A stretch of DNA of 64,000 nt, from contig NC_092677.1 in assembly GCF_964355755.1 (NCBI RefSeq), positions 18,622,101 to 18,686,100 of the forward strand. Reading direction: 5' to 3'. The translations under genes and the position numbers were made by a program. Source of the stretch: Antedon mediterranea (taxonomy: Eukaryota > Animalia > Echinodermata). Shown here one piece after another: positions 26,872 to 53,990 of this stretch. Position 1 is the first letter of the stretch, and each line of letters opens with the position of its first letter. The notes under the pieces are model-generated. The model was not told where the DNA came from. It was given only the letters and a program-made list of their open reading frames with translations, and did no database searches.

Positions 26872-29490
26872 TTTGCGCATGTTTCTAATGATTATTGGGA
26901 CCGCCCAATCTCTATAACGGTGATGGTTTCTATAATTTTAGTTAACTTTCTGTTCTATATATTATACTTAGTTCAGTCATCATCATCAGTCAAGGTAAAT
27001 CAAATCAATTCGATTTAGATAACACCAGTATAATTGTATCTGGGATCCCGATGTAAACAAACTACTTTTGCATTAATATTAAAATCATTAAAAATACAAT
27101 TGAAAGAGTTTGTTGTTATGATTGATCCATTATTACAAATATTTTACATAGAATATCATGTATATAGATAGTGTATATTTTAATATTTGTGTCAAATATC
27201 ATCTTTGATTTGAAACTTAATTTTTTGTGTTTGATATTTTTTAAATAAATAAATCAATAAAAAAGTGAAGAAAGGCCTTATGATTCTAGAATTCTAACTT
27301 TTATGTGTTTTGTATTAACATTATGATCATTATTATATATTATTTTAGGTACATTAATTTTGTTTGGACAATCTAATGCAACTGCTTTTGCCATATTATT
27401 ATCATCATTTCAAATAATTTGATAGATTAAATAGATTGATTACTAAATCGATATATTACTAGCATTTAAACAGTTTATTAAATAGTGCAGGGGAAGGAAT
27501 CCCGCGATAGATTGATACTGTAATTAGCATACCAAACGTTTAAAGTTAATACAAATAAATATATTAATAATAATTAATTAGGCCTAATAATTAAAAAACA
27601 ATAAAAACACATGATAATGGATACTAATAGAATTATTACACAGTGATATAAAGAATACACAATGAATGTAACTAGTATAGAATACCCTAATAAAATAATT
27701 ATATGAAGCTGTTGTGTCTGAAAAGTCTTGTTTTAAATTGATATGTTTGCATCACAATTGAAATTTATTTATTTAAGATAGCACGTTATATTTATCTTTG
27801 CACGTGTTCACGCATAATACGAAATGACGACAAAAGATAAATAAAGAATAGGTATTAGGTAACACTTTATTGTGTTATATTCCACTTTTTTAATTTACTA
27901 CAACAACCACTATCACTTATTTCTTTCCAAACTGTTGGTTTATTTGTGTAGATACTAATTCATTTCAATATGTCTGGCTGGATACATTTAATTCCTGCCG
28001 TCTTGTTGGTAAATAATGCAAATTAGTATACCATGCAGGCAAATATAATTGTAGTTTAAAATGTGGGTTAAAATACTTCGAAAATATTTCAGGAAATTTA
28101 TATCGGTGTCTACCTTTCTTGTTGAGTCTTTCAAAACGTCTAAATAATATGACTAGAATAATGTATTCTCGTTCATTCATTTCTCTGTATTCTTTAATTA
28201 TAAATCAGGTGGTATAATGTATATGCAAATTAATCATGCTTGATTTAGTTTGCTTGTTACGTAAGAACAAGACAAGAACAAAGAGATATATTTAGAAGCT
28301 TGAAGTGAACTGTTTATAGGCTTACTTGAAGCCTAAAGCCAGCTGATGCCTAGACTTTAGAGGTTCACCTAGATAGCTATATTGTAACTTACTCTAGTAG
28401 AATACACATGCATTATTATGTTCGTAAGCACATTTTTTATATTACTCTTTTACTTTGTATATTATTGATATATTGACAATCAATTGAGCTATCTTACTAT
28501 CCTAACGAACATTTCTTATAAATGAAGGCCTATATTAAATCTTATTACATGTCAACTTGATACATTGCATTGTTTGATTTCACTACATTTATGTTGAGTT
28601 AGTTTAGTAAATCGGATAAACATATCAGACATAGAGATCCCTAATAGTCAGTTTGAACCAGATAAAGTTGATTAATAAAGGTAAAACTTCTTTCAAAGTG
28701 TGTCCATAATAATACAAAATTGAGAGGCCCTTTGAAAAATAGTTCAAATGGTTGAACATATTGTCCGTATTGAATTGCGTGACTTCTTTGTACTAATATT
28801 TCTATAACTTTATCGTCTATGTTTACAGTATATTGTGGTAAAAACCCATTGGGCATATTCCTGTCAACTGTTTGTAATCAATAGAAACAAATTGTTGTAA
28901 TAGTTCGTGGAACTTTACATATTCTTAAATGTTTATGGGCATTGTGTACATTACACGTTAATTTTTATTCTCAGCTGGGTCTCTACATAGGCCTACGACT
29001 GTCTCAGTATCATAGGACTTTTTGGTAATACAACATCTCCTACATAGAACATGTAGCCCTATCGTGTAGGTTAGGTAAAGGGTATGTTCATAATATGTGA
29101 TTGTGTATTACAGATCGTCATGATACCGGAGTAATATAACTACAGAAACAACAATCCAGTGATGATTAACGTGTAAGCAACACCTAACTTTTCTGAAAGC
29201 AATAAGGAATAATTTGAAGATTTTTATTTGTGTGGACAATTCACAATGTTAGCTTTAGTTAATAATTATTCCATCTTGCTTCTTGTTTGACTAGTAATCC
29301 GAGTGCCTTGATTTACTTTTATTATTGGAAATCACACCCAAACGAATCCATAAAAAAAGTTTTAAGATAATCCACTCTCGATGGGTTTTAAAGGTAAGCA
29401 TATTGCACATTAACTGGATTTCTTTTTTAATATGATATACATAATTATAAGTATATGCCTATATTTCATTAATATAGGTATGATTACGTA

Positions 29491-29895
29491 AGTAGTATAT
29501 GGAGTACTTCAGGCCGTAATGTACCCCCAGGGAATATTTCATATTTCTATTGTTTAATTTCCAGGTATTGTAATAATAATTAGTGAAAGGTCACTCTTTG
29601 TACCAGACCCGAATGGAAGGTCATACCCCCAGGGCAGGAGTACTTCAGACCCGAATGGAATGTCATATCCCCAGGGCATATTTCATATTTCTATTGTTTA
29701 ATTTCCAGGTATTGTAATAATAATTAGTGAAAGGTCACTCTTTGTACCAGACCCGAAAGGAATGTCATATCCCTAGGGTATATATTATATTTTCTATTGT
29801 TTAATTTCCTGTTATTGTAATATTAATTAGCGAAAGGTCATTCTTTGTTAGAGAAGGGGGTTTGTTATTTTGGCGGGGTTTCCGTTTTGTCCTGT
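29491..29895 (+). repeat. Left terminal inverted repeat of the Polinton, with internal tandem subunits
   Basis: Inverse of about 45075-45383 (e.g. ATTTCTATTGTTTAATTTCCAGGTATTGTAATAATAATTAGTGAAAGGTCACTCTTTGTACCAGACCCGAA). Confidence 0.88.
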
Positions 29896-30252
29896 GTTAT
29901 ATTCGTAATTAGTAAAGAATTTGTATTTTAAAAAATTAGTGAAAGGTCATTCTTTGTAAGGGGAGGAGTTTTGTTATTTTTTTGCGGGGTTTTTGTTTTG
30001 TTTTGGGCCTGTGTTATATTCGTAATTAGTAAAGAATTTGTATTTAAAAAAAAAAAAAAAAATTAGTGAAAGGTCATTCTTTGTTAGAGAAAGGGGTTTT
30101 TGATTAAAAGCTGTTGTAGTTTTATTTCAAATTTTGTTTATAATTTAGTGTTTCAGTGTTACTTGAATAGGTATTGTTAATTAATTTCCAATCGTGTATA
30201 TATTGTTTGACCACTACAAGGCCTTGAATAATCCTTAACAACTCTCCCAACT

Positions 30253-30728
30253 GTTATTAATTAATCCGTTTACCGACCCCCGTATTTACGGTTGAAGGCT
30301 AGCTCTAATGGTCACTGTTATGGACGGAGTTTCCTAATTATTAAAGATTGTCTGACCAGTCATAATAGTGTAAAGTTCATTGGAAGGTTTAAAAATAATG
30401 TAATTTGTTTTTAATTAGTGAAGGTAATTCTTTGTTTGGGGAGTACTATTGTTATTATTTTGACGATTTATCCATTACAATGATCACCTTTGTTTAGTAT
30501 TAATTAATCCGTCTCAGTGTTTTCGGGTGAAGGCTAAATCTATTGGTCACTATTGTGGGCGGAGCTTCCTAATTATTAAAGAACGTCTGACCAGGGAAGA
30601 GACCAAGCGTAATCGTCTCGAGAAGGTTTATTACTGTTATTAATTAAGCTATTGGTCAATATTGTGGGCGGGGCTTCCTAATTACTAAAGAATGTCTGAC
30701 CAATCGTAATCGTCGCGGGAAGGTTTTA
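30253..30728 (+). promoter_or_regulatory. Three direct repeats carrying CCAAT (ATTGG) and GC-box motifs upstream of pPolB
   Basis: TATTAATTAA...CTA(A/T)TGGTCA...TGGGCGG(A/G)GCTTCCTAATTA.TAAAGA..GTCTGACCA...GAAGGTTT at about 30254, 30498 and 30638; the first copy is the most degenerate. Confidence 0.55.
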
Positions 30729-30814
30729 ATAACCGTGTGTTACTTGTTTAGTTCATCATTCATTTACTAATTCTTCAAAGTTTCGGTACCGATTTTTTTC
30801 TTCAAAGTTTTGCA

Positions 30815-33800
30815 ATGTCTCAATTCGCTTCTTCCTCAACTGATTCTAACGATAGTTTATTTATCGAGTGTCAAAGAGCTGTTGACGCTATAGTTAATCT
30901 GTCGCGTGCTAATAATGTGCCTGACAATGATATCCCAGATGTGGGTTTACTAGAGGATTTTGTGTTTGGAGACCAGGACTTTGATTTACCGGTCAGTCAA
31001 AGTATTTCTGAAACCGGTAGTCTTTCTCTAGGGGATATATGTGATAACGCCATACAGGTTGTTAAAGATCTATCGGAAAGTTTAATAATTGATCACGTAG
31101 AAGTAAGTGTTTTTGTTTAATATATTTTTATCGTAATAATTTTTTCATTACCGTATATAACTCGTAGAGTAGCTTGTGTAAACGAATGTGCTTCTGCGTT
31201 TACAGTACCATCGCGTTTCCTTTCTAATTTTTTAATTTTTTTTTTCTTTAGTATGGTATTGGTGCACACACCAAATGTTTGAAAATGAGGGAATGTGGCG
31301 AGGATAGTGATTCTCAGGAGTCTTCGGTTATTGATGAGGTAACTATCATTTTATTTTCTTTGCTATTGTTGATGCTGTATTACATCGTTTATTTCTATTT
31401 CTTTACCGTTATACTTTTTTATTTCAGCCTGTACCGGTACAATACGGGAAAGGAGCCAACAGGAAAAGACCAAGGATAGCCGAAGAAGAAGAAGTTGACG
31501 ATAATGACAGCGATGAATTGAACCTTGACGAGGTAGATTTGAGTCATTTTTGTAGTATTAACCGCTTAGCTGATAGGTTTAACCAGCGTTTTAACGCCAC
31601 GATTAGCGATTTTTCGGTTAAATTTTTTAATGTAGACCATTTAAGTTTAGAGGTGTTCCTTCCCACTCTATATAGAATTTTCGAACATGTCGTCGATAAT
31701 CTTTGCATTAACGTGCATGTCGACGATATGCTTCGGATAGTTATTCAAGCTGAGGGGTTGGATACACCTATCTCTATTCCTTTTGGTCGGAGGGCCCATC
31801 TGACAGCTGATGTTATTTTTGCAGCCATCATGAAGGTCCTTCAGTCCAAAACGGATATTTTAATTAACAACAAATTTAAGTTTAACGTTCTCCATATGAG
31901 AATGCCTAGGGGTGGGGGTTATAGAAGAAACGGTATCGACAAAATGATTAATGCTAAAAGCATAATTAAGATTAAGAATGATGGTAACGAAACTATCTGC
32001 TGCGCACGCGCAATTGTCACGGGTATTTCTATGCTCGAAGATAAAATTAATAACGTTACTAGGTGGAATAATGTTAGGAAGAGCTATGACCAGCAAAAGA
32101 CAGCCGCCCTTCATTTACTTAGAGATTCGGGGGTTAGGGAGCAAGCTTGCGGCATCGAGGAATTAAAAAAGATGCAATCCAAATTACCTAATTATCAAAT
32201 TATTGTCCTTTCTAAAGACAATTTAAATTCTGTAATTTTTAGCGGCGATTATTGTAAGAAGCAGATTTATCTTTACCATCATTCTAATCATTACGATCTT
32301 ATAACGACTATGACAGGTTTTTTAAAAGTTGTTTATTTTTGTGATAGATGTTTTACAGGGTATAAGCACCAATATTCTCACAAGTGTCAATACACGTGTG
32401 TACTCTGTAAGCATCATGAATGTGACCCTTCTATTAACGTATCTGTAAATAATACTGTAGAGTGTAAAGAGTGCAATAGATTTTTTAAAAACCAGCAATG
32501 TTTCACCAATCATAAAAAATCTCCTGATTCTAAAAAAGTTTCAGTATGTGACAAAATTAAAAATTGTACAACTTGTGATAGGATCATTCAAAAAGATCAC
32601 AACTGTCAAAACCGTTTTTGTAGAATTTGTCGGACTTTCGTTTCATACGATCATCAATGCTACATGGAACCGGTTGTAGCCCCTAAACATACTGAAAAAA
32701 AGTTTAAGAATCAGGAGGACCAAAAAAGGGCTGTCACTAAATATTTCTTTTTTGATTTTGAATGCACGCAAGAAACTGGCGAACACAAACCAAATTTATG
32801 CGTTCTTCAAAAAACTTGTCTTAATTGTATCGATGGTGCTAATGACTCTGCCGAGTGTGACGTGTGTGGGGAGAAATCAATGACTTTTCACGGGGAGACT
32901 GCATGCGTAGATTTCTGCAATTACATTTTTAACGAATACAAATATAATCATAACATTACGTGTATCGCTCACAACCTCCAGGGCTACGATAGTTACTTCG
33001 TGCTCGAGTACCTATACAAAAACTGTATTGTACCAGATATTATTGCACGCGGTGGTAAACCTATTTCAATTAAGGTTAAAGAAACGAGTATCCGATTCAT
33101 TGATTCCCTTTCATTTCTACCCATGTCTCTATCCAAATTACCCAAAACTTTTGGCATCTCCGAGCTAAAAAAAGGTTACTTTCCTCATTATTTCAATACT
33201 TTAGAAAATAAAAATTACGTAGGTCCTTATCCCGATTCTTCCACCTATTCCCCCGATAAAATGACTACTTCAGGCCGAGATTCATTCTTTAAATGGTATA
33301 ATCAGAAAATTGTAACTAATCAAATTTTCAATCTCCAAAAAGAACTCGTCGAGTATTGCATCAGCGATGTGGATATTCTCAGAAAGTGTTGTCTTACTTT
33401 TAGGCATCTTTTTTTGAAAGTAACTACATCGCCGAAAAACCCTCTACTCGGAGGCGTTGACCCCTTTTCAAATAATTTAATGACAATTGCCTCGGCGTGT
33501 AATCACGTCTTTTCTAGAAATTTTTTAAAACCATCCACCATCGCTTTATTTCCTCCATCAGGGTATCTAACAACCGTTAACCATTCTCACTCTAGCATGG
33601 AATGGTTGTGCTACGAGTCGCATAAAAGGGGGGTCTTTATCCATCATGCGAGAAATGGAGGGGAAAAAATGTTTGGGCCTTACTTTGTCGACGGCGCATG
33701 TTTAGAAAACAAAATTATTTTTGAATTTATGGGTTGTTTGTTCCACGGGTGCCAAGATTGTTATAGATCCGATTCCATTAACCCCTTCACTAACGAAACC

Positions 33801-35339
33801 ATGTTGGAATGCTTTGTCAAGACAAGCAAGAAAACACGGTTTCTGAAGGAGCAATTTCCAGATTTTGATTACGTCGAAATTTGGGGACACGAATGGAAAC
33901 GGATCAAACAATCGCTGGCCCCTAACATTAAATCTATCGTCTCCAAAGTTCCTTTCATTAGGAAAACTTTGAATCCAAGAGACGCGTTTTTCGGTGGGAG
34001 GACTAATGCCAGTTGTTTGTTCTATAAGGTAAAACCGGGTGAAGAAATTAATTACATCGATTATACTTCCTTGTACCCTTATGTAAATAAATACGGTACC
34101 TACCCCGTAGGACATCCTGAAATCGATGATCGCAAAGACATGTCCACAGATATCAACGAATATTTCGGTTTGATAAAGTGTACTATCGAAGCGCCTAAAA
34201 ATTTATTCCATCCAGTCTTACCTTATAGATCAAACGGTAAATTAATGTTTGCTCTCTGTAGAACATGCGTCGATTCTCAACAACAAACCGCTTGCAATCA
34301 TTCTGGTACAGATAGAGAATTTACAGGTTCTTGGGCAACGATCGAGGTCGCTAAAGCCGTGGAGGTTGGGTACGAGATACGTAAAGTTCACGTAGTATGG
34401 CACTTTAAAAATAAAAGCGCGTACTCTGCAGATTCTCCCTCGTCCGGTCTATTTGCCTCTTACATTAACACATTTTTAAAATTGAAACAAGAAGCTTCGG
34501 GTTGGCCTGAATGGTGTAAAACGCCCGAAGATAAACAAAAATATATTTCGGACTATCGAACCGTAGAAGGTATCGACTTGAATCATGACGACATTGCGTA
34601 CAATCCTGGGCTTCGATCTCTGGCCAAATTAATGCTAAATAGTTTTTGGGGTAAATTTGGTCAGCGTGAAAATCTCACGAGAATTAAATATACGCAAGAT
34701 CCTAACGAGGTTTACGATATTTTATCGAACCCACGGGTAGTCGTTCATGATCTAAATTTTGTTAATGATGATTTGGCTGAAATAAAATACGAAGACGAGG
34801 AACAATTTGTTGAAGTTAACCGAAAGGTTAACGTTGTCATTGCCGCATTTACCACTGCGCTAGCGCGTTTAAAATTATACGAGCTGTTGGAGAAATTACA
34901 GGAACGTGTCCTGTATTACGATACCGACAGCGTAATCTACGTGTCAAAACCCGGGGTTTGGGACCCTCCCCTGGGCGACTACTTGGGTCAGTTAACGACC
35001 GAGGTCGACCCTAAAGACGGTAAGTACATCGAGTCCTTTGTTTCTGGGGGGGCTAAGAACTACGCCTATAAATTGGATACAGGGAAGACCGTTTGTAAAG
35101 TTAAAGGTTTTACCCTTAATTTTACAAACGCTCAGAAAATTAACTTTGACACCGTCTCCAATATGGTAAGAGGTATTGGTCCTAATACAATTAAGACAGT
35201 TGAGAAGAATCGCATAACGCGCAAGCCAAAAACACGTAAGATAGTCAACGAAACATCGACTAAAGACTATCGAATCGTGTACGATAAAAGAATTATTATC
35301 GAAAATTATCGTACAGTTCCTTACGGTTATGTTTGGTAA
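30815..35339 (+). CDS. Protein-primed family B DNA polymerase (pPolB) with predicted spliced 5' exons (30815-31102, 31252-31338, 31428-35339)
   Basis: Exo motifs FFDFE, AHN.GYD, FIDS, YC.SDV; Pol motifs DYTSLYP, KLMLNSFWGKFGQ, YYDTDS, KNYAY, KVKGF. The long ORF has only a TTG start; GT-AG phase-0 introns join it in frame to ATG 30815. Confidence 0.9.
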
Positions 35340-35454
35340 ATCACTGCAATAAATTTCATCTCTTTTTCTTTTAAAATATAACTTCCTTTTTTTTTTTATA
35401 TATATAAATAATTAATTGTTACTTTTTATGTAATTTCATGCACTCAATTTCCTT

Positions 35455-35850
35455 TATAAATTCGTTTCCTTTTTTGTAGCTTAAGCAAAATATATTTGTA
35501 GTTTTAATGTAAATATTTTTATACATGTTTTTAATCAAATTTTCTTTTAATTTTGTTTATAAAGTCGGTACCGTTTCTCTGTTAGTAGATTAAGTAAATA
35601 TATTTTGTAATTTTAATTTAAATATTTTTTACATTTGAATTCTTATGTCGTTACCGTTTCCTTTTTTTTTGTAGTTTAAGCAAATTATATTTTAAGTTTT
35701 AATGTAAATATTTTTTATACATTTTCAATTTTGTTTATAAAGTTTTTAAAGTCGATACCGTTTCTATTTTTGTAGATAAAGTAAATATATTTTGTAATTT
35801 TAATTTAAATATTTTTTCCTTTTGAATTCTTATATCGTTACCGTTTCAAA
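35455..35850. repeat. AT-rich degenerate tandem repeats between the convergent pPolB and Bcl-2-like genes
   Basis: Repeated (TAC)CGTTTC...TGTAG.TTAAG.AAA.ATATTTT..TTTTAAT.TAAATATTTT units of about 90 bp, arranged as about 190-bp dimers. Confidence 0.6.
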
Positions 35851-36138
35851 TTTATTTTTGTAAATAATTATTTTCTTTATCATAATTTTGTTTTACGAGA
35901 AATAAATGTATACACCGTACTTGTTTATAATATTATATACTTGTCTGTTTCTTAACGTAGACGACGACGATGACGACGACAACAACAACAACAAAAGACA
36001 TGCGTAGTGTTGACTGTATTTTTATTTTATCCTATCCAATATAAATATTGTAATCTCTCCTCTTCCTTGTTTAAATATTTTATTTATCCAATGTCACCAA
36101 ACAGTTTGTTCCAGCAAGGCTATACAAAAGCCTACTAG

Positions 36139-36644
36139 TCAGTCGATCAAGTACCATGCTCTGTTAATTCCTAGCTTCTTACTACACAGAACAAGTTCCT
36201 ATAAATAATAATAATAATAATAATAAATAAAAGATAATATAAAAAAAACTTAATTACTAAAATGAGAATAAAAAGAAATTTACTTACCAAATCACTGTCG
36301 TTACAAAGTTCCAATAAAGAAAACTTTTCCTTCACAAATTCGCAGGATATGCGTTTAACGATTTCTAATTCTAAATCAGTATCACACTGTATCGCAACAC
36401 GTGCGCACACTGAAATTCCTGTCACGAGTCTACCGACGTGTATATTTTGGTCTATCATCATTTCTTTCAACACACTATCCAACGTCTCCGTAGTAATGTC
36501 TTTACACAATGCAATCAAACCATACTTTTTCTCCACCTCGTTACAAAGGCGAATAGTACTATAAAGGATTGGGGAGTCCCACACAACTACCCCCGTTAAT
36601 TTATATTCAATGTACGATAAAGTCAGTTTTTCCAAATCTGCCAT
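36139..36644 (-). CDS. Bcl-2-like protein (putative viral Bcl-2); likely exons 36644-36288 and 36198-36139
   Basis: BH4-like LTLSYIEYKL, BH3-like YSTIRLCNEVEKKY, BH1-like LDSVLKEMMIDQNIHVGRLVTGISVC, recognised by eye; TTG|GTAAGT donor and TTATAG acceptor. Confidence 0.62.
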
Positions 36645-36877
36645 TTCTCTCTCTACTAGTATACAGACGCTAATGACGTTGGAATTGATTTTTTAGGTTT
36701 TGATATACAATCATTTGTTAACGTAATTATCATTATTAAGCTCCTATTGGTTTATAATATCGGCCCTCTCTCTCTCTTTCATTAGTTGACAGTTTTTAAA
36801 ATAGAGTGATGTGGATAAGGAACCCCCCTCGTTATAAAATACCGATATACAAAAGCTATGACTCATTGAAACTGAAG

Positions 36878-37513
36878 ATGACGTGTGTACTGGTAACCCC
36901 CTTCACCGCCGTAATTAGCGGACCGACCTCATCGGGAAAATCATATTTCGTGAAGCAGTTATTGGAAAGTAATTATTTCGACAAGCCGTTCGATGACATC
37001 ACGTGGTGTTATGGGGAATATCAGCCCCTTTTCACCAAACTGAGCGGGTCTATTAACAACATTCAATTTATAGAGGGGATACCTATGGATTCGATAGAAA
37101 CGATGGAACCGTCAAAAAACCATTTAGTAATCATCGATGATTTAATGACCGAGTGTAGCCGCGATAAAAGAGTAGTAAACATGTTTACAAAGGGATCGCA
37201 TCATAGAAACATTTCGGTTATATTCATTATGCAAAACTTTTTTTACGGTTCTAAAGAAATCCGCACCATTACTTTAAACGCTCACTACATAATACTATTT
37301 AAAAACCCTCGGGATAAATCACAAATAGCTAATCTATCTAAACAAATGTACCCCGGTAAAGGACGTTTTTTACAGGAGGCTTTTGAAGACGCTACCCGCG
37401 TACCGTACGGTTTTCTTTTAATCGATCTAAAAGCAAATACCCCTGAGGAAATGAGGGTTAGAAGTAACATATTTTCAAAAACCAATCACTTTGTTTACGT
37501 GCCTAGAATATAA
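36878..37513 (+). CDS. A32/FtsK-like genome packaging ATPase
   Basis: Walker A GPTSSGKS, Walker B LVIIDD, FTKGSHHRNIS, QNFF, YGFLLIDL; first ATG after the TATA/Inr. Confidence 0.93.
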   Translation: MTCVLVTPFTAVISGPTSSGKSYFVKQLLESNYFDKPFDDITWCYGEYQPLFTKLSGSINNIQFIEGIPMDSIETMEPSKNHLVIIDDLMTECSRDKRVVNMFTKGSHHRNISVIFIMQNFFYGSKEIRTITLNAHYIILFKNPRDKSQIANLSKQMYPGKGRFLQEAFEDATRVPYGFLLIDLKANTPEEMRVRSNIFSKTNHFVYVPRI

Positions 37514-37562
37514 AACGCAGCCTGTACCGTTCTATTTATTCATTTACCTATTTACCAACATC

Positions 37563-37889
37563 ATGTCGAAACGTATCAAAAAGAACGCTGAAACTATTCG
37601 TTTCCTAGCCCACTGTTCACCGCGTCAAAGAAAAATTATCTTGGAAAACGCGGACGATCAACTGGTGACGGCTTTGTGCGAATGCGCAATGAATGTTTTA
37701 AAAGGTCGAGTGCAAGTATCCAACGCTCACAAGAAGAAGTTGGTTCGGTACAAGAAACACATGCGTGATATTACCAATAAAAGCATTTCGCCTCTCAAGA
37801 GAAAACGTTTACTTATTCAAAAGGGCGGCTTCCTCGGTCTTATATTACAACCGATTCTACAAACATTGGGTAGTTTACTTTTGAAATAA
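37563..37889 (+). CDS. Small basic conserved Polinton protein (putative core protein)
   Basis: Lys/Arg-rich; LCECAMNVLKG; C-terminal QKGG|FLGLIL protease-site-like motif followed by an amphipathic tail. Confidence 0.75.
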   Translation: MSKRIKKNAETIRFLAHCSPRQRKIILENADDQLVTALCECAMNVLKGRVQVSNAHKKKLVRYKKHMRDITNKSISPLKRKRLLIQKGGFLGLILQPILQTLGSLLLK

Positions 37890-38659
37890 TGCAGCACACC
37901 AAGAAAATGGTATTGATACCACAAGAACTGGCAAATACGGCTCTGTACAGTAAACGTTACGAGAAAAATCACGAGACAATCACTTCTGGTTTAGATAATT
38001 CTATGAAGGGTATACTCGAAAGGGATGACTTGCACGATTACGATAAAATTACCATGTACAGTCAAGTACTTCAACGATATTTAAATAAAGAGAAACCCGT
38101 AAATAACCCTTCACCTATGAGCTTGAACGTACAACAAACGGGGAACGTTGAAATAAACGAAAATGGCGCAGAATCTAAAGAAGATTATACGGACTCTATA
38201 TCTAAAGAAATACTACAAAGTATGCCCTCATCGTTGAAATCCAAAACAAAAACATTTCTGGACCGACTAGACCGTTACCGGAAGATGGGAGTAATTGATT
38301 GGTCAAGATACGGTGAACTACTAATCGAAGGACAAATGGTAAAGGGGAGTAATTTACTAGATTTGACTAAAGATATAATACAAGAAAAGAAAGGATTTGA
38401 ACCTATAGGCTGGAGGGATTTTATAATGGTATTGGCGAAATTGAACACCCCAGAAATTTTGATTGGAAATCCGACGAGACGTCGTACCTTACAAAGAATT
38501 AAATCGAGCGGTATACCTCCTCACGCACTACCTAAACGAAAGAATGAGGAGGATTATGCCCTCGATGACGATGATGATGAGGATGAAAAACTTACCTTTC
38601 GAGCGCCTGCCAAGAGGCGTTCAACTAGACAACCTAAACCTAAATGGTTAAATTTTTAA
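37889..38659 (+). CDS. Conserved Polinton protein of unknown function (PZ-like)
   Basis: KKMVLIP start, W...GEL...G..V.GSNL.DL and P.GW..F...L...N.P...IGN motifs typical of Maverick ORFs; TAATG overlap with the upstream gene. Confidence 0.75.
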   Translation: MQHTKKMVLIPQELANTALYSKRYEKNHETITSGLDNSMKGILERDDLHDYDKITMYSQVLQRYLNKEKPVNNPSPMSLNVQQTGNVEINENGAESKEDYTDSISKEILQSMPSSLKSKTKTFLDRLDRYRKMGVIDWSRYGELLIEGQMVKGSNLLDLTKDIIQEKKGFEPIGWRDFIMVLAKLNTPEILIGNPTRRRTLQRIKSSGIPPHALPKRKNEEDYALDDDDDEDEKLTFRAPAKRRSTRQPKPKWLNF

Positions 38660-38802
38660 AAAACATTAATCTTTATGTACTATAATGAGGAAAGGAATTG
38701 AATAAAAAAGAAATAAATAAAATAAACTCGAATTTGTTGTTGTAGTCGCTCGATAAATAAAACGTCCAAAACATATCCATTTTAAAAAACAATTTTTATT
38801 TA

Positions 38803-39327
38803 CTACGCATTCAATAACATTTTGACAAATTGTACTTTAATATATTCACTATCGTATACGGGTAAGTTAACATCGTATCGACGTTTTACAAAATCATTGA
38901 CGAACCAATCATTGGATGGTTTATCTTTACCAAACATATTTACTATCGTGGACGTATCCACTCTTCTACATTTATGAAGAATATAAAAAATACAATACTG
39001 TCCGCATACCGTAGACAAGGGCGCTTGTAACGCTTTATCGTTAAATGTCCAACTTTCTACAGAGTTATCGAGAAAATTAACAAAATGATTACTATAGTAA
39101 TTTGGGGGGTTCCCAAAAGAATCGAAAAATTCACCTTTGTTTAAGTTGTTAAAAAAGAAAGCTACCCAATGCGAACCGTTTTGATTGCTAGGCTCAACGT
39201 TTGCTATGTAAGCTCTAGGATATCCCGTATGCCCTAAAGGTAACAAGTCAGACGGGTACACCCCTCGAAAGTATCCACTAGCCAACGGATCTGATTTAAT
39301 TAACCTCAATAGTTGTATCGTGTTCAT
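38803..39327 (-). CDS. Adenain-like cysteine (maturation) protease
   Basis: GSHWVA, FFDSFG and QAPLSTVCGQYC catalytic motifs. Confidence 0.93.
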   Translation of the reverse strand: MNTIQLLRLIKSDPLASGYFRGVYPSDLLPLGHTGYPRAYIANVEPSNQNGSHWVAFFFNNLNKGEFFDSFGNPPNYYSNHFVNFLDNSVESWTFNDKALQAPLSTVCGQYCIFYILHKCRRVDTSTIVNMFGKDKPSNDWFVNDFVKRRYDVNLPVYDSEYIKVQFVKMLLNA

Positions 39328-39329
39328 AA

Positions 39330-40652
39330 TTAAAAATCTATAATTACGTTACGAGACTTGTCAATTTCTATGATTGAATCAAATTCTGAATAAACTAAAA
39401 TGTTGATGGTCTCGGTCAAAGCCGTAGAAAACTGAATTTCTAAACGTATATTTCCTTGCCGAATTAGATTAAAATGTCCGGCATTTGCCAAATCGGGAGT
39501 CAGGTCAAAAGCAAACAACGAATAGCCTTTAGGATAATCGTCTCTAGAAATCTGATTTCCGGTATCCTGGAACAACGTGTTAGAACCCGAAAATAGACTC
39601 TGATACGCCAGCATGTAGTTGCCTCCGTCTTCGAACTTTGGTTTTAACGGTTTCCACGGTACTTGCTCACCGTCAATATATAGAGCCAGGAAATTGGTGT
39701 TGAAATGTTGAAAATTGTAGGGGTTCTTCTCGTAGCTACCGTTGAATGCTTCGGTGGTCACCAGTCCTACAACCAGACGTTTCGGTAGATTACCGTTGTA
39801 CAGCGATTCCCTCGTAAACGATAGATTCCCGCGCGGTATAGTTAATGTCTTGACCTCAACGCGACGCAGCGGGTATTTGACCGGACCGCGTTCCAGAGCT
39901 TTTGCGTGGGCTAGCGCGATAGACGGGTTCAGGCGGACCTTGCGAACAAACAAGGACGCGTCTTCCAGGCGGATCTTAAAACCGGCCGCGGCATCTGAAG
40001 ACATGAGACTAAATGCGTTTTTACTTCGATGCAGTTTAATTTTGACATCTACACCGTTGAGCATCATTCGATCTTGGAAAAATATATCGCAATGAATAGG
40101 TCCAATCAAGTCGACAAAACGACTACCGCCAATGTATTGAGCCCGTTTTTTAAGACCTTTATTCACCGCATTTTCGGCTAGCGTAGGGTCAGCTACATCC
40201 ATTTTACCGGCCGTGTCTTTATGAAACAACCCACCCGTGAGGTGTGTATTCTTGGCATCGGATCCATAAGTCAGTAATGTTTCAATTAATGCCCTATACG
40301 AATAAGTATTTGTCGAAGGGGTAATCAATCTCTCGTTCAAAGAAACGTCAACTTCGCTAAACAATGATTGCAAAAGTAAATTGGCAGGGCCTACCGGATC
40401 GGCGGGCTGGAGATCGGTTCCGCCTTGTTTAGTAATTTTTAGTTTAACATTAAGCATCGTCTGCGACAAATCCATGTATTCCTCGCTGGACCCTTGTATG
40501 TTGAATTGCAAGGGGCCCACGTCGGTGATGCTGTTGAAAGGGTGATATTGCACCCATTGTCCTTTGGTTATACTAGTCTGTGTCGGCGGTACAGAAAACA
40601 AGTCCAATTCCGATTTTAAACACTCGCACGAGTGATTGTGTACAAAAGCCAT
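39330..40652 (-). CDS. Major capsid protein (double jelly-roll, hexon-like)
   Basis: 440 aa; KSELDLFSVPPTQ, SLFS.V.V.LN, NPYNFQH, GY.LFAFDLTPD, typical of Polinton MCP. Confidence 0.92.
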   Translation of the reverse strand: MAFVHNHSCECLKSELDLFSVPPTQTSITKGQWVQYHPFNSITDVGPLQFNIQGSSEEYMDLSQTMLNVKLKITKQGGTDLQPADPVGPANLLLQSLFSEVDVSLNERLITPSTNTYSYRALIETLLTYGSDAKNTHLTGGLFHKDTAGKMDVADPTLAENAVNKGLKKRAQYIGGSRFVDLIGPIHCDIFFQDRMMLNGVDVKIKLHRSKNAFSLMSSDAAAGFKIRLEDASLFVRKVRLNPSIALAHAKALERGPVKYPLRRVEVKTLTIPRGNLSFTRESLYNGNLPKRLVVGLVTTEAFNGSYEKNPYNFQHFNTNFLALYIDGEQVPWKPLKPKFEDGGNYMLAYQSLFSGSNTLFQDTGNQISRDDYPKGYSLFAFDLTPDLANAGHFNLIRQGNIRLEIQFSTALTETINILVYSEFDSIIEIDKSRNVIIDF

Positions 40653-40655
40653 TTT

Positions 40656-41042
40656 TTAGATATCGAATATATCGGAGGATCTTCTTACTCTCTTTGCGTT
40701 CGATCGACTGATGCCTTTACGCTTACGTTTTCTCTTTTTATTCACCCTACCGTTACCATTTTGGGAAACGATACGTTGACCCGCCTGAGTAAATCTGCGT
40801 TTTGCAGCTTGTTTAACGTTTTTACCGCTCAGAACATCTCCCACTAATTCGCCACCCGTGCGCAATGCTTGTTTTCCGAGAGCCTTTGCACCTTTCTTTA
40901 GCAGCGGTACAGCCTGTTTAAAGAGACCGGACAAGATACCTCCCAACCCGAACCCTCTTTGATTGTACGACCCTTGGAACACCGGTATGTCGATACCTCC
41001 AGCCTGTCTGACGTAGTAATCTTCGTAATCATCTGCCCCCAT
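40656..41042 (-). CDS. Small basic core/membrane-active protein with amphipathic helix
   Basis: YY.RQAGG, QRGFG|LGGILSGLFKQAVPLLKKGAKALGKQAL, basic C-terminus ending DIF. Confidence 0.8.
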   Translation of the reverse strand: MGADDYEDYYVRQAGGIDIPVFQGSYNQRGFGLGGILSGLFKQAVPLLKKGAKALGKQALRTGGELVGDVLSGKNVKQAAKRRFTQAGQRIVSQNGNGRVNKKRKRKRKGISRSNAKRVRRSSDIFDI

Positions 41043-41067
41043 CTTTATTTATTTGTTGTTGTTTTTT

Positions 41068-41844
41068 TTAAACGAGGTACGACGATCTGGCCTGTCTGAA
41101 ATGTAGTTTAGCGAGAACCCTTCCTCGTTGAAATGATACCTTTTCTCCCGTGTCGTTTCTTATATCTATAAGGATGGTATCGATATCTTTTTTCACCACC
41201 CTTTTGTATTGAGGACTAGCAAACGTATGTCCGACATTTTTCTTCATGTTTGATTCTCTGGTTTGTAGCGCTTTCAAAATAGGGACGCTCGCGTCTCCAA
41301 CTCGTTGAGATTCGATTATATCGGTGTACAAAAACAACGTCGGCACTCTGTGATGAATGTACGCGGGTCTAGAACCGTGTGTAATAGATCCTCGGGGAAT
41401 CGATGATTCGTCCATACCGAGTAATATGGGTAATCCATTTAATAGCGTAACTGATGCTTCTTTGGCGGTTTCCACGTTAATCACTTCTTTAATTGAGCTG
41501 AACCGAAATCTCACTTTGGACTGTAACGACTTTGAAACCAAAACCTCGTTAAGAGCATCAATCACTTTACCTCCGGTTGAATAAAACCCTGGGGCTATAG
41601 CTATTTCGATCGACGAGTCTTCTTCTTCTAATTCGTTATCTCTTATATTCACCAGCAATTTATTGTTGGTATCGTCGACGTTATACCACGTGTGGGGATA
41701 ATAAATTTCACTTAAACCAACCTCCCATTCACCGTACAAATGAATAGGCTCCGCCAGCTTGGTCGTGTATCTCGTAAGAGTATTTTCGGGAAAACAGTTC
41801 ATGGAACTGTTGCTAGGTAAGAGGACGTAAAACTGAGCCGTCAT
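41068..41844 (-). CDS. Minor capsid protein (penton, single jelly-roll)
   Basis: FYVLLPSNSS...FPENT, WEVGLSEI.YP, LFLYTDII, LHFR. Confidence 0.88.
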   Translation of the reverse strand: MTAQFYVLLPSNSSMNCFPENTLTRYTTKLAEPIHLYGEWEVGLSEIYYPHTWYNVDDTNNKLLVNIRDNELEEEDSSIEIAIAPGFYSTGGKVIDALNEVLVSKSLQSKVRFRFSSIKEVINVETAKEASVTLLNGLPILLGMDESSIPRGSITHGSRPAYIHHRVPTLFLYTDIIESQRVGDASVPILKALQTRESNMKKNVGHTFASPQYKRVVKKDIDTILIDIRNDTGEKVSFQRGRVLAKLHFRQARSSYLV

Positions 41845-41849
41845 GATGT

Positions 41850-42908
41850 TTACCGGGCAATATTCTGAACCCAACTGTTGAACTTGGCCGGATAACCTAA
41901 CCACTTAACGAAATATTCCGTTTTCCCTCCTCGTTTTCTTTTCTTTATTACTTCTTCCACGCGATACGTATCCTTGTCGCTTTTGGATACTTTTTGCAAT
42001 TCCTTTTCGTAAAAAGTACCTTCTATGATTTCGCCGTCCCAATCCTCCAGTTTATATGTGGGAACGGTCGAACCGGTACGCTTACGTATCCTAAATATCT
42101 CCTCCGTCCAGTTTGCCAGGTAACCTTTCTCGAAAGGCATTTTGTATCTACTTATTCGTACTTTATTACCCTCTTTGAACTTGGGCCGAACTTGTTTCTT
42201 TTGCTTCATTTTATACAGATTTTCCCAAACTTCATGTTCGTTATCTTTTGTAACCTGTGAGGGCGCCATACCGATTGATCTGTGTTTAGAATTATTGTAA
42301 CTCGATACCAATTTTGGAAGTACGTCTATATATTTTCGCGTAGCTTTTGATGTAAAGTATCTCCACATCCTAGTTTTCAACGATCTATTGAATCTTTCCA
42401 CGACGCTAGCTTTTGTTTCGTTATTGGTAGTGAAAAAATGTATATTCAACGATTTTAGGAGCGCTTGAACTTTACGATTAGTAAACTCTGTACCTTTATC
42501 AGTGTGAATTTTTAATGGCTTTCTTTTTCCAGATAATAGTTTTTTCATAGCAGTAAGCATAGAATCGGTAGATTTATTCTTTATAGGTAAAACCCATGCA
42601 TATTTACTAAGTACGTCTATACACGTAATAAGAAACGTGTTTTGTTTATTATACTTTTTTAAAGAAGACAAATCAACGAGATCCAATTCCCACTGCTCGT
42701 CAATAGCTGTAACAAACACCCTGTTTCTCTGAAAACGTCTTTGAATAGGTTTATGAAGAGTGTACGTATCTTGTTTTTCTAACCAGTCTTGAACGTCAGT
42801 CTTTGAAATATTAGAGTCATTTTTCACGTTTGTATAAAGTCGATCGACACCCCCGAAACTACCAGGGTTTTTTGGGTCGTAGTACGTAGAACTTAATAGT
42901 CTGTCCAT
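41850..42908 (-). CDS. Retroviral-like (DDE) integrase with C-terminal chromodomain
   Basis: W.LDLVD, IDVLSKYAW, TDKGTEF, VERFNRSLK, YN...H.SI; chromodomain YRVE.V.....EYFVKWLGYP..FNSW. Confidence 0.94.
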   Translation of the reverse strand: MDRLLSSTYYDPKNPGSFGGVDRLYTNVKNDSNISKTDVQDWLEKQDTYTLHKPIQRRFQRNRVFVTAIDEQWELDLVDLSSLKKYNKQNTFLITCIDVLSKYAWVLPIKNKSTDSMLTAMKKLLSGKRKPLKIHTDKGTEFTNRKVQALLKSLNIHFFTTNNETKASVVERFNRSLKTRMWRYFTSKATRKYIDVLPKLVSSYNNSKHRSIGMAPSQVTKDNEHEVWENLYKMKQKKQVRPKFKEGNKVRISRYKMPFEKGYLANWTEEIFRIRKRTGSTVPTYKLEDWDGEIIEGTFYEKELQKVSKSDKDTYRVEEVIKKRKRGGKTEYFVKWLGYPAKFNSWVQNIAR

Positions 42909-43195
42909 AACTCTCTCACTCGTTGAAATGAAACACTCACACATAAAACATTACTTTTAAAAAAAGAACAACAACATTTTTTTTTTTGTAAATTATCAAA
43001 CAATATTTTTTATTAACACACCGCACGAATCAAATATAGTACAATTGGAAATATAGTTTACATACATTTGGTTTACTAATACTTTTAAAAATAATTGCAA
43101 GTAATTAGAATAATCGTGAAAATAAAAGAATACAAATAAATTGTAAATGACGTCGGTAAACAAATAATTTGATTTATAGTTCATTGTTAAGAAAG

Positions 43196-44011
43196 TTATT
43201 TCAACATTGATGTAGGCCTGCGTCCTCCGTTATCGTTTTCGTCAACACCACCGTCGACGGTAACTGCATTATCAACCTCTTCAATCATCTTTTGTATTTC
43301 GCCGTGTTGTTCGATCAACTTGTACCATTGTTTCTTTGGAAGGTTTATACCTTTTTTGCCGGGCTTAAACTCGCCTCCTTCTTCGGCCTGGTAACAACGG
43401 CGAATACATACAAACTGCTCTTCTTTCCAGTTACTAACTATCACATGTATTATAGGTGTGTCCGAAAGAGGGATTCTTACTGCCTCCACCAAGTTAATGT
43501 CTCTTTGCAAATCGTCTAGGGCTTGAAGAATTAAATCAATATTGGTAAAAAGTTTTTGCCACAACAGAACGGGTAAATTAATACCTACAGGCCCAGGTTT
43601 GAAGGCACCATTTTCTTCCGTTTGATAAAATTCTCTGAGGCAAACATAAACAACTTCACCCCAGCGCTGGGCCACTACATGGCGTTTTTCAGACAGAAAA
43701 ATCCTGTTTGTTGAGGTTATTGTAATCTTTGGTTCAGCACCGGTCATTTCGGCATAATCCTTGGCGCTCATTCCTGAGGCAGAGTGAAATGTTTTTTTAC
43801 TTGTTGACGGCTTCGTTGCTTTACTCAAATCGTTAGATTGACCGTTGAAAAATTTTCTAGGATCCAATAATTTCGAGGAGTTAGAAGTCATCGTTGGTAC
43901 TTTAAAACTGCTTAACTCGTCAGATTTAGAGCTTCCCATAACTCTTTTCATAGTCCTACGAGCCTTCTCACCAATTGCTAATTTTGGAGCAGGTACGTTT
44001 TTGAAACTCAT
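43196..44011 (-). CDS. Protein with two tandem PC4/Sub1-like ssDNA-binding domains
   Basis: V.....W....YVCLREFY......FKPG..GINL...W and V.VSNWK...FVCIRR.Y......FKPGKKGINL..QW match the PC4 core (IREY....KPG.KGISL..EQW). Confidence 0.82.
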   Translation of the reverse strand: MSFKNVPAPKLAIGEKARRTMKRVMGSSKSDELSSFKVPTMTSNSSKLLDPRKFFNGQSNDLSKATKPSTSKKTFHSASGMSAKDYAEMTGAEPKITITSTNRIFLSEKRHVVAQRWGEVVYVCLREFYQTEENGAFKPGPVGINLPVLLWQKLFTNIDLILQALDDLQRDINLVEAVRIPLSDTPIIHVIVSNWKEEQFVCIRRCYQAEEGGEFKPGKKGINLPKKQWYKLIEQHGEIQKMIEEVDNAVTVDGGVDENDNGGRRPTSMLK

Positions 44012-44267
44012 GTTGAGCGATTGTATGTAGAGTGATGTACAGAGAGAGTAAAACGAATGATGGTTGATAGTTCTGAATGATTTCGTTTGAATCAGCTCCG
44101 ATATATATACAGTTGAGTACGGAAGTACCTTTTTAAAAGTAATTAGCCTAAAGCGTTGTTAATTGTTTTTCCTATCAATTGTCTCCCTACAACACGTGCG
44201 GCTTAAAGCATTGTTAACTGTTTGTTTTCCGGTCAATCGTTTTTCCGTGGCACGTGCGAAACACGTT

Positions 44268-44819
44268 TTAGATATCCTCACACAATAACTTATACAGGTT
44301 CTCTGAATTAGTCAAGGTATTTACGAGAAAGTAAACAAAATGTCTATACCGTGGTAATGAATATTCCTCGTACTTATTCAGCTCGCTGTACACGGTATCG
44401 TCTGTAACATACTCTTTATCCAGAACCTCCCGATAAAAATAATCAATCTGTTCTTCTGGAGATTTCATTAAACAGAAGTCATGATCTTTTTGACCAGGCC
44501 TATCAAATTCGCAACCATAACAAGCCGCTTTACTTAACATCCAACACATGTTTAACATTTGAGAAACAAACACTTCTCTGGTTAAATATTCCAATTTCAA
44601 TAAAAATTCTCTCTCCACCTCATCTACGTACGTAAATATACAACTTGTAGCCCGGCTACCCCTCTCATCTCCTTCATCAACACCGGCGGGTACACCCTCA
44701 TTGGTCCGCATGTACCGATCACCGATATCGTTACCTGTAACAACAGTCTCCTCATCATCGCTAATAATTATAACTGTATCTACACAGCTACCTAACGAAA
44801 AATCTATACTTCCAGACAT
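44268..44819 (-). CDS. Polinton accessory protein of unknown function with CxxC...H..C motif
   Basis: 183-aa intact ORF; CYGCEFDRPGQKDHDFC; acidic N-terminus with VIIISDDEE. Confidence 0.7.
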   Translation of the reverse strand: MSGSIDFSLGSCVDTVIIISDDEETVVTGNDIGDRYMRTNEGVPAGVDEGDERGSRATSCIFTYVDEVEREFLLKLEYLTREVFVSQMLNMCWMLSKAACYGCEFDRPGQKDHDFCLMKSPEEQIDYFYREVLDKEYVTDDTVYSELNKYEEYSLPRYRHFVYFLVNTLTNSENLYKLLCEDI

Positions 44820-45074
44820 AGCGAAATACTGTAACTCTACGATAAAATAGACGAAACAACTGGAAAGGTCACAAAAAGCAGTCCCTCTTCTTACAATGTC
44901 TAAAAAGAAACGGCTCTAAAATATAAAAAACAAAACTATTGTACCAAACAAAAAGAACAATGAACAAAAGAAATTAGGAAATACTAAACAAAGGTGACCT
45001 ATGCAATGGTCAAACCGCCTAAAAATAACAATAGCAATCCTCAAACAAAGAACTACCTTCACTAATATATTTTA

Positions 45075-45383
45075 ACCCAGGCCAAAACGAAAACCCCGCC
45101 AAAATAACAAACCCCCTTCTCTAACAAAGAATGACCTTTCGCTAATTAATATTACAATAACAGGAAATTAAACAATAGAAAATATAATACCCTAGGGATA
45201 TGATATTCCATTCGGGTCTGGTACAAAGAGTGACCTTTCACTAATTATTATTACAATACCTGGAAATTAAACAATAGAAATATGAAATATTCCCTGGGGG
45301 TATGACCTTCTATTCGGGTCTGGAATACTCCTGCCCTGGGGGTATGACCTTTCATTCGGGTCTGTATTCCCTTATATACTACT
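45075..45383 (-). repeat. Right terminal inverted repeat of the Polinton
   Basis: Reverse complement matches the left TIR subunits; ends ACTACT. Confidence 0.88.
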
Positions 45384-50470: not shown

Positions 50471-50548
50471 AATGTACTTGATCATTAATGTATTGATCAT
50501 TAATGTATTGATCATTAATGTACTTGATCATTAATGTACTTGGTCATT
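50471..50548. repeat. 15-16-bp minisatellite (AATGTA(C)TTGATCATT)n
   Basis: About five tandem copies. Confidence 0.75.
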
Positions 50549-53500: not shown

Positions 53501-53990
53501 TATTTCCAATTGGTGACACAACAGTCCAGTACAATGTCTCGGATTCATCTGGTATCTTCAATGACAGCTGTGTTTTTGTTATCACTGTTGAAGGTAGAAA
53601 ATACGTTTTGTTCAACTCTGACGTACGTGCACTGACAATTGAGTAACCTGTACAGTTACGTTAGACAGAGTTGACCAATAAACTTACTCCATGGTGCAAA
53701 TCTACATAGTAGTAGTAGTAATTATGATTATCATCAGGTAATGTTTAATTTGAAGAGTACAGTGGGTTCTAGTTAACAAAACAGGATTTTGAAACATACA
53801 TTCTCTATCCTGGAAAATGTTTAAATAATAAATTTCAAATTTCAACAATAACCACTTATTAACCAAGTTCTGAAGTTTCTTCCACCATGTAGTAGGTATT
53901 GAGTGTACTCCGAGAATAATTTGTTACTAAATGTTTGTGTTTTTTTTTTTATACTTAGATGTTTTTTGTAACACTGACAATTGTTTAAAA

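What the first reader, a model, noticed from the sequence alone, without database searches (positions are those of the whole stretch)
36139..36644. Bcl-2-like gene inside an intact Polinton (candidate anti-apoptotic cargo analogous to adenovirus E1B-19K)
Seen: an ORF between pPolB and the ATPase, with its own TATA/TCATT promoter. It has helices resembling Bcl-2 BH4 (LTLSYIEYKL vs Bcl-2 IVMKYIHYKL), BH3 (TIRLCNEVEKKY) and BH1 (VLKEMMIDQNIHVGRLV vs VVEELFRDGVNWGRIV), in the right order and with a short loop. Established: adenoviruses, herpesviruses and poxviruses use vBcl-2 proteins to block host apoptosis; Bcl-2 is not a core Polinton gene. Inference: this element manipulates host cell death, which argues for a real infectious cycle. 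The NWGR-to-HVGR change and weak BH2 suggest a divergent vBcl-2, possibly a Bcl-2-fold immune modulator instead.
Basis: partly seen in the sequence, partly recalled or inferred. Interest (0 to 1): 0.85.

Follow-up and report, generated by a model that had tools for sequence, protein, structure and literature searches.

The report
Feather-star Polinton carries eroded Bcl-2 gene
An intact virus-like transposon (Polinton) in what is likely a feather-star genome carries a small, heavily eroded relative of the cell-death regulator Bcl-2 that is predicted to still grip the death-trigger helix of Bak and likely helps keep the host cell alive; this kind of cargo is already reported for such elements.

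Summary
The gene is real and is a Bcl-2 homologue. It lies on the minus strand between pPolB and the ATPase of a 15.9-kb Polinton (29491-45383; AGTAGT ends, TACGTA target duplication), likely in a crinoid. Pfam Bcl-2 matches at E 1e-4, below the curated cut-off. Its nearest relatives are multi-copy Anneissia Bcl-2 proteins, one joined to pPolB pieces in a gene model. The model has the Bcl-2 fold (Z 13.8 to Bcl-xL), and a Bak BH3 helix is predicted in the groove (0.73, best control 0.01; may reflect likeness to solved complexes). BH1 keeps only Gly-Arg; BH2 is absent, not weak. The TATA box fits the ATPase better. Splicing and expression are untested; the membrane-like tail of the 157-aa form may be read-through intron. 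Most likely role: blocking host Bak/Bax (0.65). It is not new: Starrett et al. 2021 report Bcl2 in adintoviruses, and this scan holds 22 similar notes from at least 5 other genomes. The gene alone does not show an infectious cycle.

The parts
29491..45383 (.). Polinton/Maverick element, 15,893 bp, AGTAGT...ACTACT ends, 6-bp target duplication TACGTA (29485-29490 and 45384-45389), imperfect terminal inverted repeats with internal repeats
   Evidence: best arm match 296 nt at 94.6%
36288..36644 (-). Bcl-2-like gene, exon 1 (119 codons; holds the whole predicted helical bundle and BH1 HVGR)
   Evidence: (Pfam E 7.7e-5, 23.6 bits)
36199..36287 (-). predicted 89-nt GT-AG intron, 10% GC; if retained it reads in frame into a hydrophobic tail and the ORF ends at 36171
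   Evidence: not shown by RNA
36139..36198 (-). predicted exon 2 (19 codons and stop, not hydrophobic); AATAAA at 36084 and 36026 downstream
36645..36808 (.). divergent intergenic region shared with the ATPase; TCATT 32 nt before the Bcl-2 ATG; TATA box paired with the ATPase TCATT (26 nt)
31428..35339 (+). protein-primed DNA polymerase B; frame open from 31428, first ATG at 31728, upstream exon(s) likely spliced on
   Evidence: (PF03175 E 3.6e-45)
36809..37513 (+). A32-like packaging ATPase
   Evidence: PF04665 E 6.5e-6
37563..38659 (+). two ORFs (108 and 256 aa) in the PM and PZ positions of the vertebrate Maverick layout; named by position only
38803..39327 (-). adenain-like maturation protease
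   Evidence: PF00770 E 1.7e-4, above cut-off
39330..40652 (-). likely major capsid protein (440 aa; by position and size, no profile hit); 6 named Antedon mediterranea relatives at 94.8-99.3% identity
   Evidence: no hit
40656..41844 (-). 128-aa basic ORF (PW position) and likely minor capsid protein (258 aa), named by position
41850..42944 (-). rve integrase with chromodomain
   Evidence: PF00665 E 1.6e-13, PF00385 E 1.9e-8
43196..44819 (-). accessory ORFs: 271 aa with two PC4 domains, and 183 aa without a family
   Evidence: PF02229 E 1.8e-23, 2 stretches

Best explanation
The element carries a compact, divergent Bcl-2 homologue that is predicted to keep the BH3-binding groove and likely binds host Bak/Bax-type death effectors, which would keep the cell alive while the Polinton is active. 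Shown: the ORF, its place in an intact element, homology to Bcl-2, loss of the BH1 Asn-Trp and of BH2, retention of the BH1 Gly-Arg. Predicted: the helical bundle and BH3-in-groove binding through G71 and R72. Inferred: capture from an animal Bcl-2 gene by an ancestral crinoid Polinton; expression when the element replicates; splicing to a soluble 138-aa form (about 0.6, against a tail-anchored 157-aa form); a benefit in surviving DNA-damage or infection stress from linear DNA and integrase cuts, whether or not virions are made.
For: Pfam Bcl-2 E 1.4e-4 and 7.7e-5. Atlas top three clusters are Bcl-2, 0.90-0.91, 10 of 10 best named hits in one family or clan, though recognition 2104 is under the 2300 mark. 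The only phmmer hit among 1.84 billion representatives is P0001 (E 8.6e-5), whose N-terminus is Bcl-2 at E 1.9e-11 with NWGR and BH2 and whose later parts match this element's pPolB (57% over 134 aa; N-terminal piece E 1e-4). Four more Anneissia proteins of this type, 91.5-97.2% alike, lie on four contigs. These five and the window protein form one side of a branch: 93/79 with all 38 rows, 99/93 with two long rows dropped. AF2 with 38 rows: pLDDT 86.9, pTM 0.68; the top 36 VIA rows are Bcl-2 family or Bcl-2-fold proteins, best Z 13.8, rmsd 2.9, 123 aligned, first unrelated row Z 6.2. R72 is kept in 37 of 37 relatives, G71 in 33 of 37. Complex with an axolotl Bak BH3 helix, folded without alignments: score 0.73, best of 3 controls 0.01; mark reached by 51 of 78 solved complexes and 2 of 108 mismatched pairs (eukaryotes 71 of 105 and 2 of 126); runs agree in at least 80% of contacts, partner pLDDT at least 67; closest pairs include G71-G88 and R72-D89. 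Frame open in related contigs as far as shown: 8 listed differences in exon 1, 4 silent, 4 missense, no stop.
Against: Below the Pfam cut-off (22.8-23.6 against 31.4 bits). N69 (37 of 37 relatives) and W70 (36 of 37) are replaced, and BH2 (36 of 37) is gone; BH1 and BH2 are needed for Bax binding in cellular Bcl-2 (recalled). The good model rests on an alignment of Bcl-2 proteins; the single-sequence AF2 model was poor (pLDDT 57; no Foldseek match under E 0.5). Foldseek gave no match at E 0.001 even for the good model (best 9e-3 in PDB, 7.5e-3 in BFVD), and Z near 13 is not rare for helical bundles (note). The complex is a textbook pair with a vertebrate stand-in, so the pass may come from likeness to solved structures. 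4 silent to 4 missense among the listed differences shows no purifying selection, only 40 of 323 differences were displayed, and one contig in run X6 has 20 gap letters over the gene with the frame effect not shown. The window's branch is long (1.4-1.55), so its tree place is unsure. No expression data.
Confidence: 0.65

Rival explanations
1. A Bcl-2-fold modulator whose main target is not apoptosis: autophagy (Beclin 1) or innate signalling, like vaccinia N1, A46 or A52.
For: Loss of BH2 and of the BH1 Asn-Trp; no anchor in the spliced form or in the Anneissia relatives (last-40 hydropathy 0.3-0.7); N1L lacks a TM and acts mainly on NF-kB, and M11 prefers Beclin 1 (PMC11209288 passages).
Against: Poxviral signalling modulators rank lower (Z 6.0-9.0) than BH3-binding proteins (up to 13.8), though the model was built from cellular Bcl-2 rows; G71 and R72 are kept and a Bak BH3 is placed on them. 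Beclin binding uses the same groove, so that variant is not excluded.
Confidence: 0.2
2. A decaying passenger: once-functional cargo now eroding in this family, with no present role.
For: The most conserved family residues are lost, while the Anneissia relatives keep NW[GS]R and BH2; long branch; 4 missense of 8 listed differences; the exact protein is not in the protein collection.
Against: Open frame in an element whose core ORFs are unbroken; contigs of 3 of 4 runs, from two coded organisms, cover the gene, one at 6 differences in 241 nt without gaps; about 70% divergence from the nearest relative without a stop, with G71/R72 and the two helix-1 tyrosines kept.
Confidence: 0.1
3. A pro-death protein (Bax/Bak-like or a dominant-negative) used for release or to kill non-carrier cells.
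For: A two-sequence profile hits Bax best among solved structures (E 1e-7); the crinoid group sits next to Bak-like rows in one tree, at weak support 62/63.
Against: No Gly-Asp BH3 core, no BH2, no conserved anchor; the Bax hit is driven by P0001's BH1/BH2; characterised viral Bcl-2 homologues in the passages read are inhibitors.
Confidence: 0.05

Closest known systems
Bcl2 homologues of adintoviruses (Polintons/Mavericks), Starrett et al. 2021, PMC8502044 (sections 3.1 and 3.2 read; text layer of Supplementary Fig. S2 read; Fig. S1 slides not readable)
   Same: Accessory Bcl2 gene in an animal Polinton with PolB, integrase, ATPase and protease; 3 Bcl2 labels in the Fig. S2 text.
   Different: The paper gives one sentence, with no motif, structure or binding analysis in the text read. 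Here the gene is antisense between pPolB and the ATPase, predicted two-exon, without BH2. Whether the published genes are orthologous was not tested.
Anneissia japonica 'bcl-2-related protein A1-like' models (XP_033096041.1, XP_033096042.1, XP_033096711.1, XP_033123993.1, XP_033121109.1)
   Same: About 30% identical, shared YIEYK...WDSP motif found in none of the other 32 relatives, no membrane tail, multi-copy, one model joined to pPolB pieces.
   Different: Keep NW[GS]R and BH2 and pass the Pfam cut-off (39.9-44.8 bits for the 3 scanned). In P0001 the gene precedes pPolB on the same strand, and consecutive accessions suggest a tandem pair; DNA context not seen.
Adenovirus E1B-19K
   Same: Divergent viral Bcl-2 that inhibits Bax and Bak (PMC11209288 passage); best BFVD row (E 7.5e-3, TM 0.48); one Atlas cluster with 20% PF01691 at 0.90.
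   Different: No PF01691 match; nearest sequence relatives are cellular-type Bcl-2 proteins. Analogue; shared descent not shown.
Avipox CNP058/FPV039, ASFV A179L, iridovirus GIV66, gammaherpesvirus M11
   Same: Compact predicted bundle, Z 10.7-13.5 for CNP058, A179L, M11 and GIV66; FPV039 in the Foldseek list.
   Different: 11-19% identity; these are from large free viruses and have measured BH3 binding, this one has none measured.

Membership tests
Polinton/Maverick (adintovirus) | Terminal inverted repeats with (AGT)2 ends and a 6-bp target duplication | tested here: met
   end motif and size range in PMC8097293
Polinton/Maverick (adintovirus) | pPolB, packaging ATPase, rve integrase, adenain protease in two inward-facing modules | tested here: met
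Polinton/Maverick (adintovirus) | Major and minor capsid genes | tested here: inconclusive
   ORFs of the right size and place; no profile or PDB sequence hit; not folded. The label F54H12.2-like as Maverick MCP is recalled.
Divergent viral or mobile-element Bcl-2 homologues (filed here) | Sequence homology to Bcl-2 proteins | tested here: met
   (above all 2000 shuffles with two profiles)
Divergent viral or mobile-element Bcl-2 homologues (filed here) | Bcl-2 helical bundle | tested here: met
   predicted only; chain pLDDT 77-82 in the alignment-free complex
Divergent viral or mobile-element Bcl-2 homologues (filed here) | Binds BH3 motifs and blocks cell death | not testable with these tools
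   prediction supports binding; no measurement
Canonical multi-BH Bcl-2 family (PF00452) | Pfam gathering score 31.4 bits | tested here: not met
   22.8-23.6 bits
Canonical multi-BH Bcl-2 family (PF00452) | BH1 NWGR | tested here: not met
   HVGR; G and R kept
Canonical multi-BH Bcl-2 family (PF00452) | BH2 W-x4-GGW | tested here: not met
   36 of 37 relatives, absent here and in predicted exon 2
Canonical multi-BH Bcl-2 family (PF00452) | C-terminal membrane anchor (many, not all members) | tested here: inconclusive
   present only if the intron is retained (hydropathy 3.0); 6.5% of 20,000 shuffles of the intron are open and hydrophobic
Adenovirus E1B-19K (PF01691) | Match to the family profile | tested here: not met
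   not listed at E up to 1
Poxvirus A46/N1-type signalling modulators | Bcl-2 fold with signalling-adaptor function rather than BH3 binding | tested here: inconclusive
   Z 6.0-9.0; function not testable here

The most novel reading that the evidence does not exclude
A minimal Bcl-2 that has shed BH2 and the BH1 tryptophan yet still neutralises Bak/Bax, and that switches between a soluble form (spliced) and a membrane-anchored form (intron retained, the T-rich intron itself encoding the anchor); part of a crinoid Polinton Bcl-2 lineage kept, duplicated and moved within the element across feather-star genera.
Probability: 0.15. Interest if true: 0.55.

Novelty: new member of a known kind. Interest (0 to 1): 0.3.

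Why it matters
It adds a well-anchored case to a class reported in one sentence of the adintovirus paper: an intact, recently multiplied element, a relative in a second crinoid that keeps the canonical motifs, and a testable binding prediction. If binding is confirmed, it shows how little of the Bcl-2 motif set a mobile element needs to control host cell death. It does not settle whether animal Polintons are infectious.

Tried and rejected
No whole genome is held for this window, so sibling loci and host Bcl-2 genes could not be read; no crinoid host Bcl-2 came up in the searches, and the donor gene is unknown. Single-sequence word search: 0 hits among 22 candidates; PDB sequence search 0; PHROGs 0 of 3 proteins. 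No related loci in viral contigs or metagenome contigs. Single-sequence AF2 model uninformative. Atlas search with P0009 gave only leads under 0.9 (BID/BCL2L15 clusters). Sequencing runs: no RNA holder listed; X5 is only guessed to be RNA. Contigs were laid on 36258-38680 only, so the splice joint and exon 2 were not covered; X1 may be the window's own sample; X9 covered 1 of 30 bins; depth was not used as copy number. A diverged X1 contig runs from the ATPase to the first 19 coding bases of the gene, too short to count as a bridge. Longer or shorter protein forms were not searched (3 of 3 searches used at near length). Rejected: the TATA box as this gene's own; 'weak BH2'; the hydrophobic tail as established; a 31-nt intron to the AG at 36257 (too short, recalled); cargo as proof of infection. 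Literature: searches found no paper on crinoid or echinoderm Polinton Bcl-2 (0 papers); subscription papers are mostly not held, and Fig. S1 of PMC8502044 could not be read and may show such a gene.

Full report
Setting. The finding lies in a Polinton at 29491-45383 (15,893 bp). The ends read AGTAGT and ACTACT, both flanked by TACGTA, and the arms match over 296 nt at 94.6%. Pfam finds pPolB, an A32-like ATPase, an adenain protease and an rve integrase with chromodomain, in the two inward-facing modules described for vertebrate Mavericks (PMC8097293, architecture section read). The capsid ORFs are named by size and place only (no hits). The 440-aa ORF clusters with 6 named Antedon mediterranea proteins at 94.8-99.3% identity, so the host is likely a feather star and the family has multiplied recently.

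The observation. The ORF (36644-36171, minus strand, 157 aa) and the quoted motifs are present. A GTAAGT donor at 36287 and an AG at 36199 bound an 89-nt stretch of 10% GC between exons of 38% and 40% GC, giving 119 + 19 codons. No RNA shows the splice; no RNA holder was listed, and the stretch laid did not include the joint. The promoter claim holds only in part: TCATT at -32, but the TATA is 80 nt further up, whereas 4 of the other 11 ORFs have the pair 26-31 nt apart, the ATPase among them, using the same TATA bases.

Identity. Pfam Bcl-2 matches at E 1.4e-4 (whole ORF) and 7.7e-5 (exon 1), under the cut-off of 31.4 bits. The Atlas puts Bcl-2 clusters first (0.90-0.91), with recognition below its mark. 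phmmer over 1.84 billion representatives returns one hit, P0001 from the crinoid Anneissia japonica. Its first 120 residues are a clear Bcl-2 (E 1.9e-11); later parts match the N- and C-terminal regions of this element's pPolB, so it is most likely a gene model stitched across a Polinton in which Bcl-2 precedes pPolB. Profile searches add four more Anneissia proteins on four contigs, 91.5-97.2% alike, and 32 other Bcl-2 proteins. Exon 1 scores above all 2000 shuffles against profiles that leave it out. The six crinoid rows group together at 93/79 (38 rows, mixture model) and 99/93 (P0041 and P0037 dropped, LG+G4); long branches meet there, so this is support, not proof, but the WDSP motif is confined to these six. 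No crinoid host Bcl-2 was in the set, so the donor is unknown.

Structure. Folded alone the protein gave a poor model. With 38 rows it gave pLDDT 86.9. VIA ranks 36 Bcl-2 family or Bcl-2-fold chains first, Bcl-xL at Z 13.8 (rmsd 2.9, 123 aligned), the first unrelated chain at 6.2. Foldseek lists the same families but none at E 0.001. The alignment biases this model towards Bcl-2. An alignment-free run placed an axolotl Bak BH3 helix in the groove: score 0.73, best of 3 controls 0.01, runs agreeing in at least 80% of contacts, partner pLDDT at least 67, with G71-G88 and R72-D89 among the closest pairs; the mark was reached by 51 of 78 solved and 2 of 108 mismatched pairs. That is the canonical geometry (recalled), and such pairs can pass by likeness to solved complexes; it shows compatibility, not binding.

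What is eroded. R72 is kept (37 of 37 relatives) and G71 (33 of 37); N69 and W70 are replaced; BH2 (36 of 37) is absent. The hydrophobic tail exists only if the intron is retained. The intron is 55 T of 89; 11% of its shuffles are open and 6.5% open and hydrophobic. Contigs in three runs stop matching just inside the intron, at 36270, and two runs show a 6-nt insertion there. The Anneissia relatives have no such tail. I therefore favour a soluble spliced product (about 0.6) and keep the retained form as an open possibility.

Conservation. Contigs of 3 of 4 runs, from two coded organisms, cover all 30 bins of 36258-38680; one from organism B differs at 6 of 241 nt in the gene without gaps, another has 20 gap letters of unknown frame effect. 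Of 40 differences shown (283 not shown), 8 fall in exon 1: 4 silent, 4 missense, no stop. This keeps the gene in the family but does not show selection.

Mechanism. Most likely (0.65) the protein sequesters BH3 motifs of host Bak/Bax-type effectors and delays death of the cell in which the element replicates or integrates. Rivals: an autophagy or signalling modulator (0.2), a decaying passenger (0.1), a pro-death protein (0.05). Function is inferred from fold, kept residues and the behaviour of other viral Bcl-2 proteins (PMC11209288, passages only).

Infectious cycle. The gene does not decide this. Survival of the carrier cell helps any replicating or integrating element. Planarian Burro retrotransposons carry BCL2-like and BIR motifs, along with an Env-like region (PMC6431247, passages). 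Unchecked earlier notes of this scan describe Polinton derivatives with Bcl-2 but no viral genes; these are leads only.

Prior art. Starrett et al. 2021 state that adintovirus homologues of Bcl2 and IAP were observed (PMC8502044, sections 3.1 and 3.2 read; three Bcl2 labels in the text layer of Fig. S2; Fig. S1 unreadable). Buck et al. 2024 note anti-apoptotic homologues in mammal-associated adintoviruses (PMC11071296, passages; lead from note e1-7352434). Intron-bearing cargo is described for nematode Mavericks (10.1101/2022.07.12.499685, passages). Passages of 10.64898/2026.10.13.758929 had no mention. Nine searches found no paper on a crinoid case. The scan itself has 22 notes with these words in at least 5 genomes, none on this sequence or in this genome.

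Verdict. Observation confirmed with corrections; interpretation partly supported. New member of a known kind; interest 0.3.

Noticed in passing
window 43196-44011 (-): Polinton accessory gene with two PC4 domains (PF02229 E 1.8e-23), a likely single-stranded DNA-binding protein; Fig. S2 of PMC8502044 has SSDBP labels.
   Followed up: partly
window 59068-62661 (+): Reverse transcriptase (60366-62003) overlapping a tyrosine recombinase ORF (61834-62661), with a 213-nt identical repeat at 63047 and 63412: likely a DIRS/Ngaro-type retrotransposon (class name recalled).
   Followed up: no
window 96-26871 and 50242-57591: Host exons for MAM, CUB, HYR and secretin-type 7TM domains, in internally repeated blocks, with HYR exons repeated about 38 kb later: likely tandem adhesion-GPCR-type genes flanking the Polinton.
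   Followed up: partly
window 25850-25985: Perfect AT-rich palindrome, 67-nt arms, 2-nt spacer; possibly a small MITE or an assembly artefact.
   Followed up: no
window 35470-35816: Four copies of a 51-nt unit at about 100-nt spacing in the 22% GC spacer between the converging pPolB and Bcl-2 3' ends.
   Followed up: no
window 37563, 36809, 41042, 44011: TATA followed 26-31 nt later by TCATT upstream of 4 of 12 element ORFs examined: a shared core-promoter layout.
   Followed up: partly
P0001, P0009: Consecutive Anneissia accessions on one 216-kb contig hold two Bcl-2 paralogues (62.5% identical) next to pPolB pieces, annotated as host genes.
   Followed up: partly
window 29491-29899 and 45073-45383: The two terminal repeats differ in their number of internal repeat units and agree in only the first 10 terminal bases before diverging.
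   Followed up: no
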